Shown: positions 2,810 through 52,028 of the stretch, one piece after another
Position numbering within the stretch: the first letter of the stretch is position 1
Layout: every line of letters starts with the position of its first letter
Virus record (IMG/VR): IMGVR_UViG_3300038409_000069
Location: 6,377 to 70,376 of that record
DNA length: 64,000 nucleotides
Strand: one strand, 5' to 3'
Origin: a virus
The notes under the pieces: model-generated
Told to the model about the DNA's origin: nothing
The model's database searches: none
The model's input: only the letters and a program-made list of their open reading frames with translations
Position numbers and translations under genes: made by a program

Positions 2810-3565
2810 ATGGCAAAGAATATCACCTCAGCGCCCCGCCGTTTCAAGCGGCTGAGCGTCGAGCTTCGAAACCTTCCGCTGGCCGTCCTGGTCGTCGTCA
2901 TCTCGATCTGCATCGAGGTCTACGCAACAGGCGGCATATTTCAGCAAAACACCGCTTCGGTTTCGATCTTCGGATTGGGCGTCGCGCTCGCGCCCGTCGA
3001 AGCGGCCATCTCCCTGGGGCTGGGTCTGCTCAGCCTCTGGTGTGCAATGACTGCCGCGGCTCTCAGGGCCGATCCGCGGTCCGATCAGAAGGCCCGGGCG
3101 TTCGGCGCGCAGGCTCTTGCGTTTGTCCTGCTCTGCGCTCCGATCTACTATGCTGGAAATTCGTTCGCATTCCAGCGTCAACTCGCGGACTATCGCGAGT
3201 ATTCAGGCTCAGAAGCTGAGCGCGCCGATCGAATGCTCGCGTTCGATGACGGCGCCGACAGCCGAGCCCGCGGCGACGCTGCGGAGAGCCTCAAGAACGG
3301 CGTCGAACCACAAGCCGCGCGGTTCGACTTTTTGTGCACGCTGTGGGCCGCGTTCCTTTACGTGGTGAACATGGCGGCGGCCCGCCTTGGTTGGCGCCCT
3401 CGTCCGGAAACGGACGCGGAGGCCAAGGCCCGGGAAGCGGCGGTCCGGGCGGCGAAGGCCGCTCAGACCCGCGAGCGCAACAAGAAGGCAGCCGACAAGG
3501 CCCGCCGCCAAGCCGAACGCGATGCAGCCCGCAAGGCCGGTCGCGGATTTCTCAGGGTCGTTTGA
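2810..3565 (+). CDS. multi-pass membrane protein (moron)
   Basis: GGGAG RBS and ATG 2810; about 4 hydrophobic helices and a basic Ala-rich coiled C-terminus; has its own promoter and terminator. Confidence 0.75.
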   Translation: MAKNITSAPRRFKRLSVELRNLPLAVLVVVISICIEVYATGGIFQQNTASVSIFGLGVALAPVEAAISLGLGLLSLWCAMTAAALRADPRSDQKARAFGAQALAFVLLCAPIYYAGNSFAFQRQLADYREYSGSEAERADRMLAFDDGADSRARGDAAESLKNGVEPQAARFDFLCTLWAAFLYVVNMAAARLGWRPRPETDAEAKAREAAVRAAKAAQTRERNKKAADKARRQAERDAARKAGRGFLRVV

Positions 3566-3569
3566 TCCG

Positions 3570-3606
3570 AAGCGCTCCGTCTCCTAACCGAGGCGGAGCG
3601 CTTTTT
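3570..3606 (+). terminator. rho-independent terminator
   Basis: AAGCGCTCCGTCTC-ctaacc-GAGGCGGAGCGCTT followed by a T-run, right after the stop codon. Confidence 0.8.
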
Positions 3607-3818
3607 GCGTCGCGGGCCGGGCGCTACTCCGGCTGCTCGCCATTCAACCCGCCAGCCAATATGGACGGGACCGAGCCTGTCGAAACTGGCATTCGACGCG
3701 TGTCTGCTTTCCACGCCGCCGCGACGCCTCCCTTATACGCTGCTTCGCGGCCCGGTGGAATCCTGTTGCGCCCGGCGGAGGGGGCGGTAGGGTGCGATCA
3801 AAATGCGTGGGGAGTGCA

Positions 3819-47946: not shown

Positions 47947-48182
47947 GCGCACCCCCGTTCGCCATTCGGTCGCGAAGTATTCTCGCTGAGGTCATCGAAT
48001 CGATGAACGCCCGTGCGTTCGCTCTGCGCACGGCGCGCGCGGGAGTGAGGTGAATTCCTCATTGTCAGGTTGATGCGAGGAAGAAAACCAAGTCCCCAGT
48101 CGTTATTTGCTTGAACTGCCGGCGATGATGACGGCAGTGTAACGAAACAAAACGTGGGTCCCAAGGGACGGGGGAGGTGGGC

Positions 48183-48386
48183 ATGAAGCGCACAAAAGGC
48201 GCGCTGCGAAACTGTGCGCTCTACACTCAGATCGAGCTGACCATCTGCCACGGGAATGTGTATTTCACGATGAGCAACGAGCGCGGCGCGACTATTTCCG
48301 GCTACGTGCCGGTCGATGTTTGGCGCGCCTCGGTGAGGGCTTTGCCGCCGCCGGACAACAAGGTGCCGTTTCGGGCGCGTCATTGA
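48183..48386 (+). CDS. small antisense ORF downstream of cro
   Basis: GGAGGT RBS and ATG; KVPFR C-terminus. Confidence 0.45.
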   Translation: MKRTKGALRNCALYTQIELTICHGNVYFTMSNERGATISGYVPVDVWRASVRALPPPDNKVPFRARH

Positions 48387-48652
48387 GCGGCCTCCAAGGC
48401 AGGCTCGCGCTCCTTGTCGGGCTCAGGCGATTTCATGCGTTTGGCGCGCATGCGCGGCTCGGCGATTTGATCCCGCGTGAGTTCGGTGACGGCGATAATC
48501 CGCTCTTCGACGGCAGCGCTCGGCGGGCTCGCGCCCCGTTCGATGCGCGAGAGCTGCGCGTCTTTGATCCCAAAGAGGGGGGCCGCCTGATGGAGGTCGA
48601 AGTTCTTCTTCTTCCGCCAAAGCCGGAGCGGCGAATCATATTTCTCGCTCAT
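48380..48652 (-). CDS. Cro-like XRE HTH regulator
   Basis: LRLWRKKKNFDLHQAAPLFGIKDAQLSRIERG; divergent from the repressor. Confidence 0.8.
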   Translation of the reverse strand: MSEKYDSPLRLWRKKKNFDLHQAAPLFGIKDAQLSRIERGASPPSAAVEERIIAVTELTRDQIAEPRMRAKRMKSPEPDKEREPALEAAQ

Positions 48653-48662
48653 CGCCGGTAGG

Positions 48663-48679
48663 CTTGCACATGGTGCAAG
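48663..48679. promoter_or_regulatory. operator (OR-like)
   Basis: Palindrome CTTGCAC-ATG-GTGCAAG between cro and the repressor. Confidence 0.8.
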
Positions 48680-48747
48680 TTCGGTCAAGACGGATGGTTA
48701 ACCCATTGCTGCCATTCTTGCTTTCCGGGCGATGGGGGCCCTGAGGG

Positions 48748-49128
48748 ATGGCCCGTATGCTGCCTTCTATGGCGTTGAGGGCCCGAAAGAAAGAAGCCGG
48801 GGCCATACCCCGGAATTTCATACGGGAATGGCGGGAAGCGGAGGGCTGGACCCTCCTAGAGCTGCTCGACCACCTGGCGCCCCTGCATGTCCGGATGACG
48901 GAGGGCAATCTGTCCAAGATGGAGCGCTCGAAAACCCCCGTCGATACAGGCACTTTGCACGCCATGGCGGTTGTCTTCAAGACGAGCCCGATAGCCCTTA
49001 TGCTGGGGCCGCCCGGCGATCCGCTGGTCATGGCTATCGACGCCCTAGGGCCACTGGACAAAGAGGACCGCGCCGACGCCGTGGCGTCCCTCCTCTCCAT
49101 GCTGAGGCTCGCCAAGCGGGCCGGCTGA
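48748..49128 (+). CDS. CI-like XRE repressor without an S24 peptidase domain; exact start uncertain
   Basis: FIREWREAEGWTLLEL...TEGNLSKMERS. Confidence 0.8.
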   Translation: MARMLPSMALRARKKEAGAIPRNFIREWREAEGWTLLELLDHLAPLHVRMTEGNLSKMERSKTPVDTGTLHAMAVVFKTSPIALMLGPPGDPLVMAIDALGPLDKEDRADAVASLLSMLRLAKRAG

Positions 49129-49156
49129 CGGCCTAAGCCTCTGAAATCGCGGGCGA

Positions 49157-49240
49157 CTTGCACTAGGCGATATTTTTTCTTGCATATGGTGCAAGTTTGG
49201 CTTGCCCTTAACCAAACTTCGTGCTTGCCTGTAGTGCAAG
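49157..49240. promoter_or_regulatory. operators and promoter of the early operon (OL-like)
   Basis: CTTGCATATGGTGCAAG at 49179-49195 and CTTGCCTGTAGTGCAAG at 49224-49240, plus CTTGC half-sites at 49157 and 49201. Confidence 0.8.
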
Positions 49241-49293
49241 TTCAGGCCGCGATTCGGCGCCCCCGGCGCAGACGCGGGAATGGGAGAGGGCAA

Positions 49294-49860
49294 ATGGCCG
49301 TACAGGCGACAGCGACACTTCGGGCGATCAGCCCTTACTCGCAATCACGGGCGCACGAGACGCCGAAGAAAGAGAAGGAGACGCCGGACGCCTACGAGGT
49401 TCGGACGTGGCCTGAGAAAGCGCACTTCGACGACAAGGGCGCCGTCTTCATCCCGCCGATGTCGTTCAAGATGAGCCTGGATGCGGCGGCGAAGTATCTG
49501 TCGATCCAGATCCCGGGCAAGGGCAAGAGCACCTACACGAAGCACTTCGCCAGCGGCGTGCTCGTTCTCAACCCCGTCTATGTCGGGGTGAAGAAGAGCG
49601 AGCTTCGCTACGATCGCATTCACGCCAACGCGGATGGCGTTCGCGGCTCCGGCAAGCGCGTCTGGCGCTACTTCCCGCGCATCGAAGATTGGAAGGCCGA
49701 CGTCGAGTTCAACATCTACGACGAGGCCGTGACGCGGGACGTGTTCACGCGGGTTCTGGAAGAGGCCGGGAAGTTCATCGGGATTGGCCGCTTTCGTCCT
49801 CAGAACGGCGGGTTTTATGGCCGCTTTGCCGTGGAGGGCGTGAAGTGGCAAGAGATTTGA
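49294..49860 (+). CDS. stand-alone RAMP/Cas7-like RNA-binding protein (188 aa)
   Basis: N-terminal strand ATLRAISP; VFIPPMSFKMSL (RAMP IP..S.K motif); thumb-like loop; C-terminal Gly-rich loop GKFIGIGRFRPQNGGFYGRF; no other cas genes nearby. Confidence 0.75.
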   Translation: MAVQATATLRAISPYSQSRAHETPKKEKETPDAYEVRTWPEKAHFDDKGAVFIPPMSFKMSLDAAAKYLSIQIPGKGKSTYTKHFASGVLVLNPVYVGVKKSELRYDRIHANADGVRGSGKRVWRYFPRIEDWKADVEFNIYDEAVTRDVFTRVLEEAGKFIGIGRFRPQNGGFYGRFAVEGVKWQEI

Positions 49861-50386
49861 TCCACCTCGCGGCGCGGCTCAACACCGCACACCGCCTCAC
49901 GGCACAACACCCCACTCCGCAACGCACCTCTACGCGACACCGCGCAACGCGCCTCTATGCCTCGCCCAGCGACACAACTCCGCGCAACCCAACGCGACGT
50001 TTTCCTGTTCGCTCATTATCCCGCGCTGCTCGGCGTCTCGCCTCGCAACGCGCCACGTCACACCACGCCGCAACGCGACGCAGCGATTTCCTGTTTTTGG
50101 CTACGCTGCGCACCGCGTCACTGCGCTGCGCACCGCGACACCGCGCAACGCGACGTTTTCGGTTTCTCCCTTTCCGCAGCGCGTCGCTACGCAACTTCGC
50201 GCTCCGCGCGACGCGATGCAACGTTCGAGTTTTCAGCGCACCTTGCCGCGCCGCTGCCCGTCGCAGCGCGTCACGTCACAGCGCCCCACGCCGCAACGCT
50301 CATTCATCCAGTTTTCAGCGCCGCACTGCGCAGCACATCGCCACACATCGCACCACTGCACGGCACAGCATCCCGCAACGCAACGC
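49861..50386 (+). repeat. pentamer array (NN-CNC)n in six segments; putative guide ncRNA(s)
   Basis: Strict 5-nt periodicity of CGC/CAC/CTC triplets separated by variable dinucleotides; segments end in CGC-AA-CGC-like units followed by pyrimidine-rich linkers. Confidence 0.9.
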
Positions 50387-50400
50387 CCTTGGAGTCCTGA

Positions 50401-50922
50401 ATGCTTAACCTGACCGCCAGCCCTAAGCGCGCCGTCCAGATCGACCGGCTCACCGAGGCGCTTACCGCCCTCTCGATTGGCCAAGTCATCTCATACGAGA
50501 CGCTGTCCAAGATTGCGGGCGAACCTATGGGCAGCACGTCTTACGCTGTTCGCCGCGCCCTTTCGCGCGCCGAGAAAGAAACAGGCGCGCTCTTCGGCAA
50601 TGTCCGGAATGAAGGCTTTCAGCGCCTCCGCGCCGAGCACGCCCCCGGCGTTGGCGGCAAGGCCAACGATCACATCCGCCGCCACGCTCGCAAGACTGAG
50701 CGCCGCCTTGGCTCATGGCGCCCGCCGAATGACGCGACGCAATCCCAAATCGCCGAAGTCGCCGCCTACCGCGCACACATGGGCATGGTCGCGAGCATCG
50801 CCACCAAGAACATCATCAAGTCACTGACCAAGAGCATCGAGGAAGCCGCGCCGATCTCACCAGAAACGATGGCGCAGCGCCTTGCCGAAACGATGGGCAA
50901 GAGCCGTGACAAGGCCCGGTGA
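50401..50922 (+). CDS. winged-helix-like protein associated with the RAMP/array locus
   Basis: GGAG RBS; GQVISYETLSKIAG...FGNVRNEGFQRL wing. Confidence 0.7.
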   Translation: MLNLTASPKRAVQIDRLTEALTALSIGQVISYETLSKIAGEPMGSTSYAVRRALSRAEKETGALFGNVRNEGFQRLRAEHAPGVGGKANDHIRRHARKTERRLGSWRPPNDATQSQIAEVAAYRAHMGMVASIATKNIIKSLTKSIEEAAPISPETMAQRLAETMGKSRDKAR

Positions 50923-51116
50923 TGCTCTCCGACGCCTTCGTCGCCGCCCTCACCATAGCGATGTGGGAATGGATCAAGGCTGTAGTCCGCGCAGTCGCGC
51001 AGGCTCAGAGGGATTTTCAGCTTCGCCGCAAATCCCTTCGTTTTCCTTGCGGCGAGGAAGCGCCGGCCGGTCACCCAACGCATGTGCCGGCCGGCGCGAA
51101 GATTGGAGAGGCGTGA
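50919..51116 (+). CDS. hypothetical protein
   Basis: Coupled start/stop overlaps. Confidence 0.45.
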   Translation: MMLSDAFVAALTIAMWEWIKAVVRAVAQAQRDFQLRRKSLRFPCGEEAPAGHPTHVPAGAKIGEA

Positions 51117-51436
51117 TGCCTGATTTCACACCAGGGCCGCTTGAGGTCATCGCCTACACAGACGAAGCCCCGCGCGTCAATTATGAAATCTGGACGCATC
51201 CGGGAACCGATGAGGGCGACCAGACTGCCATTGTTTTCACGAGGGCCGATGCCAATTTGTACGCCGCGGCACCTGAGATGTACGACGCGCTGAAGGGCGC
51301 GCACGCAGCAATCGACATGCTCTACGCCCGCCTCATTGCAGTTGAAGGACTCCGGTTCTTGCCGAGCAAGGACCCGACGTGGCCCAAGATGGTCGCGGTT
51401 TTTGAGGCGATCAAAAAGGTCGATGGAGACGCGTGA
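51116..51436 (+). CDS. phage protein (TPGP...AAAPE family)
   Basis: FTPGPLEV...ANLYAAAPEMYDAL. Confidence 0.7.
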   Translation: MPDFTPGPLEVIAYTDEAPRVNYEIWTHPGTDEGDQTAIVFTRADANLYAAAPEMYDALKGAHAAIDMLYARLIAVEGLRFLPSKDPTWPKMVAVFEAIKKVDGDA

Positions 51437-51783
51437 TGTCCGCCCATCCCGAACCAATCCCGCTTCCAGATCGCCGCCCCGATGGCTGGTGGCTCGGCAG
51501 GCGCGGGCCGTTCCCGACCCTGATAGACGCGCACGCCGCCCGCCGGGACATCGTAGTCTGCAAGTATTGCGGCGGCATGTTCGGGATCCATTTGCCGAGC
51601 TGTTATCGGCCAAGGAAGGGCGTCGAGAGCGCCCCGCGTCCTGACTATCTCGCCTATTGCGAAGCGGCGATGCAGCAAAGCGACGATACTCCTGTTCTCG
51701 GTCCGCCCTCTGTCTTCAAATTCTCCGAACCTCCGAAGCGTCTCGACGGAAACGGCAACGAGATCCGCGGGAGCAAGTCATGA
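51433..51783 (+). CDS. hypothetical protein
   Basis: CKYC...H...C; coupled. Confidence 0.5.
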   Translation: MMSAHPEPIPLPDRRPDGWWLGRRGPFPTLIDAHAARRDIVVCKYCGGMFGIHLPSCYRPRKGVESAPRPDYLAYCEAAMQQSDDTPVLGPPSVFKFSEPPKRLDGNGNEIRGSKS

Positions 51784-52028
51784 CGCCATACGTCAAAGGT
51801 GACACCGCGAATCTGATTGTGCGACTGCGTGAGGCTCGAGATGAGGCGCGCGTTCGCTTGTCTCAGACCCAAGAATGGATCGCCTATCAACGCTTCGGCG
51901 CGCCAAGCGAAACCGACGCGGACTGGACCGTAGCAGCGCAGGTTGAGGTGTTGTGTTCGCGGCTCAGCGAGGCTGCGGATGCACTTGAGCGCGGCCCGGC
52001 GCAAGCAGAGGGAGCGAAAGATGGCTGA
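51780..52028 (+). CDS. hypothetical protein
   Basis: LIVRLR...EAADALE; coupled. Confidence 0.55.
   Translation: MTPYVKGDTANLIVRLREARDEARVRLSQTQEWIAYQRFGAPSETDADWTVAAQVEVLCSRLSEAADALERGPAQAEGAKDG

What the first reader, a model, noticed from the sequence alone, without database searches (positions are those of the whole stretch)
49981..50400. Conserved segment ends and U-rich linkers suggest processing into six separate small RNAs
Seen: segments end with a stereotyped tail: CGC-AA-CCC-AA-CGC-GA-CGT, CGC-AA-CGC-GA-CGC-AG-CGA, CGC-AA-CGC-GA-CGT, CGC-GA-TGC-AA-CGT, CGC-AA-CGC and CGC-AA-CGC-AA-CGC. Each is followed by a pyrimidine-rich linker (TTTCCTGTT twice, TTTCGGTTTC, AGTTTTCAG twice). The shared linkers suggest growth by segment duplication then NN diversification. 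Inference: the AA/GA tail is a constant handle, and the U-rich linkers are unprotected cleavage sites, for example for host RNase E. Seg1 is twice normal length and may be two fused units.
Basis: partly seen in the sequence, partly recalled or inferred. Interest (0 to 1): 0.7.

Follow-up and report, generated by a model that had tools for sequence, protein, structure and literature searches.

The report
Phage VIPR guide-RNA array, six units
The stretch is the guide-RNA array of a phage VIPR system, a CRISPR-like DNA silencer first described in 2026; it holds six blocks of five-base repeats, each ending in the same short tail and separated by short U-rich spacers, but whether these spacers are cut is untested.

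Summary
Window 49861-50400 is a 540-nt non-coding array of about 83 five-base units (C-N-C plus two free bases). It forms six in-phase blocks. Each block ends in CGCAA-CGC-type units and is followed by a 12-26-nt, 50% T, unstructured linker.

It is a vrRNA array of a VIPR system (bioRxiv 10.64898/2026.04.26.720920).
- The upstream gene matches the solved SUSP1 Vipr protein (profile E 9e-11) and folds like Cas7.
- 72 of 88 related loci carry such arrays next to this gene.
- This scan has already found VIPR arrays on other DNA.

New here is a family-wide 3' handle written in the repeat code. AA fills 53/49/35% of the last three units against 7% inside, in 185 blocks. There is no structured tail like the one described for SUSP1.

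One block (S2) matches a conserved DUF932 gene motif in four other phages under the published "read two, skip one" rule. Controls show that this match could be chance.

The idea of six separately acting guides with a constant handle is supported by comparison. Cleavage at the U-rich linkers by RNase E is plausible, since all 9 RN|WUU sites lie at linkers, but it is untested because no RNA data were found. U-richness after the blocks is not family-wide.

The parts
48663..48679 (+). Operator-like 17-bp palindrome CTTGC-N7-GCAAG, copy 1, between the cI-like and cro-like genes.
   Evidence: Exact match.
49179..49240 (+). Two more exact copies of the same palindrome (49179-49195, 49224-49240) upstream of vipr. 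They suggest repressor control of the vipr-array-vap unit (inference).
49294..49860 (+). The vipr gene: a 188-aa single-RRM RAMP with G-loop GIGRFRPQNGGFYGRF.
   Evidence: phrog_4652. PDB 36pp_D 'SUSP1 Vipr protein' E 2.7e-6, profile E 9.1e-11. AF2 pLDDT 86.8. Best Foldseek hits are Cas7/Csm3, E about 1e-7.
49863..49997 (+). Block S1: 27 units in one phase, ending cgcAA cccAA cgcGA (+CG). Internal tail-like CGCAACGC + CCTCTA at 49918 and 49943, so it may hold 2-3 fused or staggered guides.
49998..50023 (+). Linker 1: CGTTTTCCTGTTCGCTCATTATCCCG.
   Evidence: junction fold z +0.88.
50024..50086 (+). Block S2: nine guide units (50024-50068), then the tail cgcAA cgcGA cgcAG cga (50069-50086). [quoted passage not shown]
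50087..50100 (+). Linker 2: TTTCCTGTTTTTGG.
   Evidence: fold z -1.08.
50101..50155 (+). Block S3: 10 units from 50104, ending cgcAA cgcGA (+CG).
50156..50174 (+). Linker 3: TTTTCGGTTTCTCCCTTTC.
   Evidence: fold z -0.12.
50175..50223 (+). Block S4: about 9 units with a 2-nt slip, ending cgcGA cgcGA tgcAA (+CG).
50224..50235 (+). Linker 4: TTCGAGTTTTCA.
   Evidence: fold z +0.84.
50236..50299 (+). Block S5: 12 units from 50237, ending cgcAA cgc.
50300..50318 (+). Linker 5: TCATTCATCCAGTTTTCAG.
   Evidence: fold z +0.72.
50319..50386 (+). Block S6: 13 units, ending cgcAA cgcAA cgc.
50387..50400 (+). Spacer holding GGAG, the ribosome-binding site of the next gene.
50401..50922 (+). Candidate vap accessory gene: 173 aa, winged-helix-like N-terminal domain followed by helices.
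   Evidence: No Pfam or PHROG hit. Relatives beside vipr in 31 of 88 loci by tblastn. AF2 pLDDT 81.5 with H-E-H-H-E-E topology. Only weak Foldseek hits, best 1t6s_A at E 9e-3, then MarR/GntR/PurR-type winged helices at E 0.1-1.

Best explanation
The stretch is the vrRNA array of a phage VIPR system. It lies between the Vipr gene (49294-49860) and a winged-helix-like accessory gene (50401-50922), in the repressor-controlled early region of a temperate phage.

It encodes six guide units, possibly eight if S1 is compound. Each unit has three parts:
- a tract of pentamers C-N-C/NN (mostly CGC/NN), whose NN dinucleotides carry the target information;
- a constant 3' handle written in the same code (CGCAA-CGC, often followed by GA or AA units);
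- a 12-26-nt U-rich, unstructured linker that also resets the 5-nt phase.

Shown by sequence, fold, comparison and the published work: the identity of the system, the block grammar and the family-wide AA handle.

Inferred: the array is transcribed with vipr and vap as one early transcript, because no promoter-like or terminator-like site lies inside it and vap needs read-through. One Vipr protomer per pentamer then coats each block, as in the SUSP1 cryo-EM structures. The naked linkers are cut or trimmed by host RNases, giving RNAs of about 50-70 nt (about 135 nt, or shorter products, for S1). RNase E is one candidate enzyme.
For: Identity:
- Vipr match in the PDB; Cas7-like fold.
- Period-5 arrays beside the homologous gene in 8 of 8 genome loci and in 72 of 88 loci overall. 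Four of the 16 loci without a called block were inspected, and all four have degenerate arrays.
- The published description of VIPR.

Units:
- Six in-phase blocks with phase resets.
- Block sizes fit the family: median 14 units, quartiles 12-18. The published range is 9-16 repeats.

Handle:
- Terminal AA/GA/AG enrichment in the window and AA enrichment in 185 blocks of relatives.
- The S2 candidate target matches only the nine units before the tail.

Linkers:
- 50% T.
- No fold better than shuffles, z -1.08 to +0.88; whole array z +0.34.
- No Rfam family, so no ribozyme.
- 9 of 9 RN|WUU sites lie at linkers.
- A median 21-nt gap between neighbouring blocks in relatives.

Single transcript: 0 promoter-like sites in 48000-51500 and no terminator-like site inside the array. 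The linkers are too short for a sigma-70-type promoter.

Precedent for cutting multi-guide vrRNA precursors: the staggered and hammerhead-interspersed arrays in the legends of Figs S18-S19.
Against: - There are no RNA data. No listed run is RNA, so neither the transcript nor any end has been seen.
- U-richness after blocks is not a family trait. If cutting is general, its signal is not simply U.
- The studied SUSP1 vrRNAs carry a structured tail of about 40 nt, which is absent here. Assembly and end definition may therefore differ.
- The papers I read say nothing about vrRNA biogenesis in arrays without ribozymes: 'RNase' and 'terminator' have 0 occurrences in the discovery paper.
- Linker 1 holds a CATTAT that recurs as TATTAT in a linker of L012. 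An internal promoter cannot be excluded by a consensus scan.
- The only candidate target is not statistically secure. Two reordered control patterns gave 0 and 2 hits against 4 hits in one gene family. Four other guide patterns gave none: S6 and S5 (11 units each, tail units left out) and S3 (all 10 units).
Confidence: 0.6

Rival explanations
1. Each block is its own small transcription unit. The T-runs after the tails act as terminators and a promoter sits in or across each linker, so no endonucleolytic processing is needed.
For: - Published SUSP1 vrRNAs are discrete transcripts of about 100 nt, and their biogenesis is not described.
- The tails of S1 and S3 can form a 4-bp CGCG/CGCG stem a few bases before UUUU (read).
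- Linker 1 holds CATTAT and a linker of L012 holds TATTAT.
- In cyanobacterial relatives each block is followed by a hairpin and preceded by an AT-rich TTAATATTAA stretch.
Against: - The scan found 0 promoter-like sites and no terminator-like site in the array.
- Linkers of 12-19 nt (4 of 5) cannot hold a -35/-10 promoter.
- Junction folds are no better than shuffles.
- vap and the downstream early genes have no promoter-like site of their own in the scanned stretch, so they need read-through.
Confidence: 0.15
2. The array is not cut. It stays one long RNA, as the leader or intercistronic part of the early mRNA, on which six Vipr filaments assemble side by side. The linkers serve only as phase-resetting hinges.
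For: - No RNA evidence for cutting exists.
- Phase resets between blocks would suffice to end each filament.
- S1, with 27 units in one phase, shows that long tracts are tolerated, as do 13 of 186 long blocks in relatives.
Against: - All experimentally examined VIPR RNAs are short discrete species, and 'processed vrRNAs' are described for staggered and ribozyme arrays.
- A U-rich single-stranded linker inside an mRNA is a typical RNase E substrate (PMC5222698).
Confidence: 0.15
3. The region is not an RNA-guide array at all. It could be a C-rich Rho-utilisation tract, a set of DNA iterons, or a coding region.
For: - C 43% against G 23% and no structure would suit a rut site.
- Two long ORFs span it.
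Against: - The same gene-plus-array pairing occurs with G-rich (GGC, GAC) triplets in relatives, which no rut site explains.
- A 5-nt period is incompatible with coding, and low-GC relatives have stops in all frames.
- The neighbouring gene is a Vipr homologue.
Confidence: 0.03

Closest known systems
Type II VIPR systems of Escherichia phage SUSP1 and a Pseudomonas fulva prophage (bioRxiv 10.64898/2026.04.26.720920; structures 10.64898/2026.04.26.720927)
   Same: - A phage-borne single small RAMP (Vipr).
- Guide RNAs made of pentamers with three fixed and two free bases.
- Several vrRNAs per locus and an adjacent accessory gene predicted to bind DNA.
- An invariant 3' end after the repeat tract.
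- The Y3-pocket arginine of the G-loop is kept: SUSP1 GDWRP against GRFRP here (alignment; residue roles).
   Different: - The fixed triplet is C-N-C (mostly CGC), not GGY. The G1-contacting Asp of SUSP1 aligns with Arg here.
- There is no structured (pseudoknot) tail of about 40 nt. The handle is 2-3 terminal CGC-AA/GA units, and junction folds are no better than shuffles.
- All six blocks sit between vipr and vap.
- Only 32.6% or lower identity to Vipr homologues in named phages.
VIPR arrays with non-canonical repeats (NNNGG, YNNNG, NNNNG in 10.64898/2026.04.26.720920 Methods; GAC/NN, CAC/NN, WGT/NN, TGH/NN in 10.64898/2026.10.21.760802)
   Same: - Pentamer arrays beside Vipr-like folds whose fixed triplet departs from GGY.
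- CGC/NN fits YNNNG.
- Relatives of this locus use GAC and CAC.
   Different: - 'CGC' does not occur in the text of the second paper (0 occurrences). Its Fig. S10 and the supplements of both papers were not visible to me and may list it.
- CTC/NN and GTC/NN, seen in relatives here, are not named in the passages I read.
Staggered and hammerhead-ribozyme-interspersed vrRNA arrays (legends of Figs S18-S19, 10.64898/2026.04.26.720920)
   Same: A multi-guide precursor is resolved into individual vrRNAs. S1, with internal tail-like motifs in phase, resembles a staggered arrangement.
   Different: - No ribozyme: the linkers are 12-26 nt, and Rfam finds nothing in the array at E up to 1.
- Blocks S2-S6 are separated by out-of-phase linkers and do not overlap by 1 nt.
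CRISPR pre-crRNA processing, including host RNase E-dependent maturation in a cyanobacterial type III system
   Same: One long transcript is cut into protein-bound guides. Each mature guide keeps a constant handle.
   Different: There are no 25-40-nt repeats, no Cas6 and no cas operon. The guide is read discontinuously.

Membership tests
VIPR system (Vipr + vrRNA + vap) | A Vipr protein: a small single-RRM RAMP with glycine-rich loop and thumb, related to published Vipr. | tested here: met
   188 aa. phmmer hit to PDB 36pp_D 'SUSP1 Vipr protein' at E 2.7e-6 over residues 110-181; 9-sequence profile at E 9.1e-11. AF2 pLDDT 86.8. 106 Foldseek hits at E<=1e-3, led by type VII Cas7 and Csm3.
VIPR system (Vipr + vrRNA + vap) | A non-coding tract beside vipr made of tandem pentamers with three constrained and two hypervariable positions. 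| tested here: met
   Lag-5 autocorrelation 0.47 against 0.17-0.19. About 83 units with C at positions 1 and 3. Arrays beside the gene in 72 of 88 related loci.
VIPR system (Vipr + vrRNA + vap) | The canonical GGY/NN (YNNGG) repeat. | tested here: not met
   The units are CGC, CAC or CTC plus NN. CGC/NN fits the published alternative YNNNG. Relatives of the same protein clade do use GGC (63 of 185 blocks).
VIPR system (Vipr + vrRNA + vap) | 9-16 repeats per vrRNA. | tested here: met
   S2-S6 have 9-14 units. S1, with 27, is outside the range. The family median is 14.
VIPR system (Vipr + vrRNA + vap) | An invariant 3' tail after the repeat tract (about 40 nt and structured in the SUSP1 clade). 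| tested here: inconclusive
   A constant 3' end exists (CGCAA-CGC...), and AA-ending blocks are family-wide. However, it is short, written in repeat code, and unstructured (z -1.08 to +0.88).
VIPR system (Vipr + vrRNA + vap) | An adjacent vap accessory gene with a predicted DNA-interaction function. | tested here: inconclusive
   A conserved neighbour in 31 of 88 loci. Winged-helix topology in the AF2 model. The best Foldseek E is only 9e-3. It was not compared with published vap1-6, whose sequences I did not have.
VIPR system (Vipr + vrRNA + vap) | Discrete small RNAs that co-purify with Vipr. | not testable with these tools
   No RNA run holds the stretch. The contigs laid cannot show RNA ends.
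VIPR system (Vipr + vrRNA + vap) | Natural targets under the 1-nt skip rule, with the skip at the codon wobble position. | tested here: inconclusive
   The S2 core matches 18 of 18 bases in 4 phage contigs, all in the DUF932 motif WGLLNAVT(A), with skips at wobble positions. Two reordered controls gave 0 and 2 hits. S3, S5 and S6 gave 0. There is no self-target.
Hammerhead-interspersed vrRNA array | A self-cleaving ribozyme between guides. | tested here: not met
   No Rfam match in 49861-50400 at E<=1. The linkers are 12-26 nt.
Staggered vrRNA array | Adjacent vrRNAs overlap by 1 nt with no linker. | tested here: inconclusive
   Not so for S2-S6, which have linkers. It is possible inside S1, where tail-like CGCAACGC at 49918 and 49943 keep phase.
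CRISPR array | Direct repeats of about 25-40 nt alternating with spacers, with cas genes nearby. | tested here: not met
   The repeat searches find only pentamer-derived families. No cas operon was seen among the ORFs listed for 40000-64000; ten of these were scanned against Pfam and PHROGs.

The most novel reading that the evidence does not exclude
In this large Vipr clade (176 relatives in IMG/VR alone) the vrRNA has no separate structured tail. Its 3' handle is written in the pentamer code itself, as two or three terminal xxC-AA units. This handle could be the nucleation or capping site for 3'-to-5' Vipr assembly. Multi-guide arrays embedded in an early mRNA would then be resolved by host RNases acting on naked linkers. 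That would be a route to mature guides needing neither Cas6, nor a ribozyme, nor a pseudoknot. The same clade tolerates at least six fixed triplets (GGC, CGC, GAC, CAC, CTC, GTC) with a nearly unchanged G-loop, so triplet choice would be set elsewhere in the protein.
Probability: 0.35. Interest if true: 0.55.

Novelty: new member of a known kind. Interest (0 to 1): 0.35.

Why it matters
VIPR is a months-old class of RNA-guided DNA silencers. How its guides are made from multi-guide arrays has been described only for ribozyme-bearing and staggered arrays.

This locus and about 70 relatives give a compact, testable case of a third layout: short unstructured linkers, and a handle written in the repeat code. 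If the AA handle and the linkers prove sufficient for maturation and loading, they define a minimal design rule for multiplexed vrRNA arrays.

The candidate DUF932 target also offers a concrete reporter test of the skip rule in a CGC-type system.

Tried and rejected
- RNA evidence: no RNA holder was listed. Laying the contigs of two DNA runs gave only fragmentary cover and no information on RNA ends.
- Known RNA families: none in 48000-52000 except a sub-threshold PtaRNA1-like match outside the array. None at gathering score in 20 related loci. No hammerhead at E<=1 in L004, L019 or L034.
- Structure: the whole array (z +0.34) and the six junctions fold no better than shuffles.
- Self-targeting: the best matches of all six guides in the phage's own 70-kb genome do not exceed those of shuffled guides at any skip length. 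The same holds in 524 kb of related loci.
- Exact 1-nt-skip patterns:
  - S6 and S5 (22 specified bases each) gave 0 hits in viral contigs and 0 in metagenome contigs.
  - S3 (20 specified bases) gave 0 hits in viral contigs.
  - S1 and S4 were not scanned in the collections.
- Convergence: the other guides do not hit the four DUF932-bearing phages better than shuffles.
- Skip rule across the family: 180 guides from relatives were run against 836 kb. Skip 1 gave nine matches of 17 or more out of 18; six of these are the S2 hits that were built in. Skips 0, 2 and 3 gave 1, 1 and 4, so there is no clear enrichment.
- Protein-RNA covariation: the G-loop (GRFRP) and thumb segments are nearly the same in loci using GGC, CGC, GAC or CAC, so no simple code emerged.
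- Phage records: the array DNA has no blastn match in the 'phages' collection.
- Supplements of the four VIPR-related preprints are closed. Type assignment (I-VII), repeat logos (Figs S17, S10) and vap sequences may bear on the novelty call.

Full report
**What is there.** The window is an IMG/VR virus record of 70 kb, rated complete by CheckV. The finding lies in a lambdoid-style early region with these genes:
- a cI-like HTH gene (48380-48688, minus strand);
- a cro-like HTH gene (48748-49128);
- a 188-aa gene of PHROG 4652 with no Pfam hit (49294-49860);
- a 540-nt gap;
- a 173-aa gene with no family hit (50401-50922);
- then ERF, a YqaJ exonuclease and NinB.

Three exact copies of a 17-bp palindrome flank the cro-like gene, and two of them precede the 188-aa gene.

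**The observation.**
- The gap has a strong 5-nt period: autocorrelation 0.47 at lag 5 against 0.17-0.19 at lags 4 and 6.
- It is 43% C and 23% G.
- It resolves into six blocks. Each is internally in one phase, and the phases differ between blocks. The blocks hold 27, 14, 10, about 9, 12 and 13 units of C-N-C plus two free bases.
- All six blocks carry AA within their last three units (77 of 20,000 shuffles reach this).
- 14 of the 18 terminal units are AA, GA or AG (1 of 20,000 shuffles).
- CGCAACGC occurs eight times in the array. One copy (50044) is internal to a block, so the octamer alone is not an end mark.
- The five internal linkers are 12-26 nt and 50% T, against 9% T in the blocks. 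They hold all eight T-runs of three or more.

The array begins at 49861, not at 49981.

**What it is.**
- The 188-aa protein hits the solved 'SUSP1 Vipr protein' (PDB 36pp) at E 2.7e-6. A nine-sequence profile hits it at E 9.1e-11.
- Its AF2 model (pLDDT 86.8) matches Cas7/Csm3 chains at Foldseek E of about 1e-7.
- Homologues in eight genomes from at least five phyla all carry period-5 arrays beside the gene.
- Of 88 loci in all, 72 have at least one array by a conservative caller. The four 'empty' loci I inspected have degenerate arrays.

This is the VIPR system described in bioRxiv 10.64898/2026.04.26.720920. I read its Results, Discussion, two Methods sections and figure legends. A Vipr RAMP polymerises on vrRNAs made of GGY/NN pentamers. 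The NN bases read double-stranded DNA with one skipped base per unit.

The cryo-EM preprint 10.64898/2026.04.26.720927 (one section and passages) shows one protomer per repeat and a 3' pseudoknot cap.

Earlier entries of this scan had already filed similar arrays on other DNA as VIPR. That look-up and my own literature search reached the same paper.

**How this array differs.**
- The fixed triplet is CGC, CAC or CTC rather than GGY. CGC/NN fits the published alternative YNNNG. GAC/NN and CAC/NN are reported in 10.64898/2026.10.21.760802 (passages).
- Within the same protein clade, relatives use GGC (63 blocks), CGC (61), GAC (30), CAC (10), CTC (8) and GTC (2). The G-loop is nearly unchanged across them.
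- There is no structured tail. The junctions and the whole array fold no better than shuffles, and Rfam finds nothing in the array.
- Instead, the 3' end of a block is written in repeat code. Across 185 unique blocks, AA fills the last three units in 53, 49 and 35% of cases against 7% inside.
- Neighbouring blocks are separated by a median of 21 nt (n=47).
- The closest relative (L012, 76% Vipr identity) has six upstream blocks and one downstream block. Each ends in CACAA-CGCAA-CG or a close variant of it; five of the six upstream blocks are followed by a 15-20-nt linker, and two of these linkers share CAGTT(T/C) with the window's linkers.

**Are the six blocks separate guides?** Block sizes match the published 9-16 repeats, except for S1.

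- All four matches lie in the DUF932 motif W-G-L-L-N-A-V-T-A.
- The free dinucleotides fall on codon positions 1-2, and the skipped base falls on the wobble position.
- Neither the 5' degenerate units nor the AA/GA/AG tail units match.
- The phage itself has no DUF932 gene, and the four target phages have no Vipr.

This fits a guide-plus-handle reading and the published wobble logic. It is not secure, however. Two reordered control patterns gave 0 and 2 chance hits, one of them in frame. The four real hits are one gene family, so they count as one event. The guide patterns scanned for S3, S5 and S6 found nothing, and no convergence was seen.

**How the RNAs are probably made.** No promoter-like site lies in 48000-51500 and no terminator-like site lies in the array. 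Four of the five linkers are too short for a promoter, and vap needs read-through. I therefore infer one early transcript. Vipr would coat each pentamer tract, and host nucleases would remove the naked linkers.

All nine matches to the RNase E core motif RN|WUU (PMC5222698, passages) lie at linkers. That makes RNase E a reasonable candidate, but this is compatibility and not evidence.

Two points weigh against a universal U-rich signal. T after blocks is only 0.23-0.27 in relatives, against 0.21 background. Some relatives also carry hairpins or a conserved two-hairpin element between blocks.

No RNA data could be found.

**S1.** Two internal CGCAACGC + CCTCTA motifs (49918, 49943) keep phase. 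This would fit two or three fused or staggered guides. On the other hand, 13 of 186 blocks in relatives are also 25 units or longer, and some of them have no internal AA pair.

**Verdict.** The locus is a further member of the published VIPR kind, with a CGC-type repeat and a linker-separated, tail-less array layout. The cleavage mechanism remains an inference.

Noticed in passing
L004:2740-2800 and 2860-2920; L019:3480-3560; L034:3590-3670: In three related loci, a conserved element of about 60 nt with two hairpins (...ACGCAGCAATCAGC...GCTGACYGATGCGAAAGCATT...) sits between vrRNA blocks. It could be a processing signal or a self-cleaving RNA. Rfam finds no hammerhead or other family at E<=1.
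   Followed up: partly
L008:4270-5200; L009:4140-4620; L088: Cyanobacterial relatives use CTC/NN units. Each block is followed by a hairpin (HIP1-type GCGATCGC stems, or CAGCTT/AAGCTG) and an AT-rich stretch. This is a different way of punctuating the array.
   Followed up: no
L092:3646-4725(-); L095:9375-10415(-); L093:178-203; L094:788-813: DUF932 genes (phrog_1221 and phrog_1362) of four Vipr-less phages carry an exact 1-nt-skip match to guide S2 at the motif WGLLNAVT. This is a candidate natural target of unknown significance.
   Followed up: partly
L001:2480-2790 (Pseudomonas phage vB_Pae_LESphi2, OQ594955.1): This named phage encodes a Vipr homologue (32.6% identity, annotated hypothetical). 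Upstream lie three canonical GGC/NN blocks, each followed by GGGCTG and a hairpin-like tail. That looks like the published type II layout.
   Followed up: partly
window 51042-51101 (+): A sub-threshold match to the Rfam family PtaRNA1 (antitoxin RNA): 28.1 bits against a gathering score of 47, E 0.012.
   Followed up: no
L024-L029 (prophages in isolate genomes), about 2680-2990 and 3550-3660: These arrays are degenerate (mixed GGC, GAC and GGN units) and were missed by my block caller. They still end in GACAAGACAAGG + TTTC. The figure of 72 of 88 loci with arrays is therefore a lower bound.
   Followed up: partly
88 related loci: The fixed triplet differs between loci (GGC, CGC, GAC, CAC, CTC, GTC) and is consistent within a locus. 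Yet the G-loop (GRFRP) and thumb segments barely change. What sets the choice of triplet is unexplained.
   Followed up: partly
window 48663-48679, 49179-49195, 49224-49240: Three exact copies of CTTGC-N7-GCAAG, likely repressor operators. Two of them lie between the cro-like gene and vipr.
   Followed up: partly
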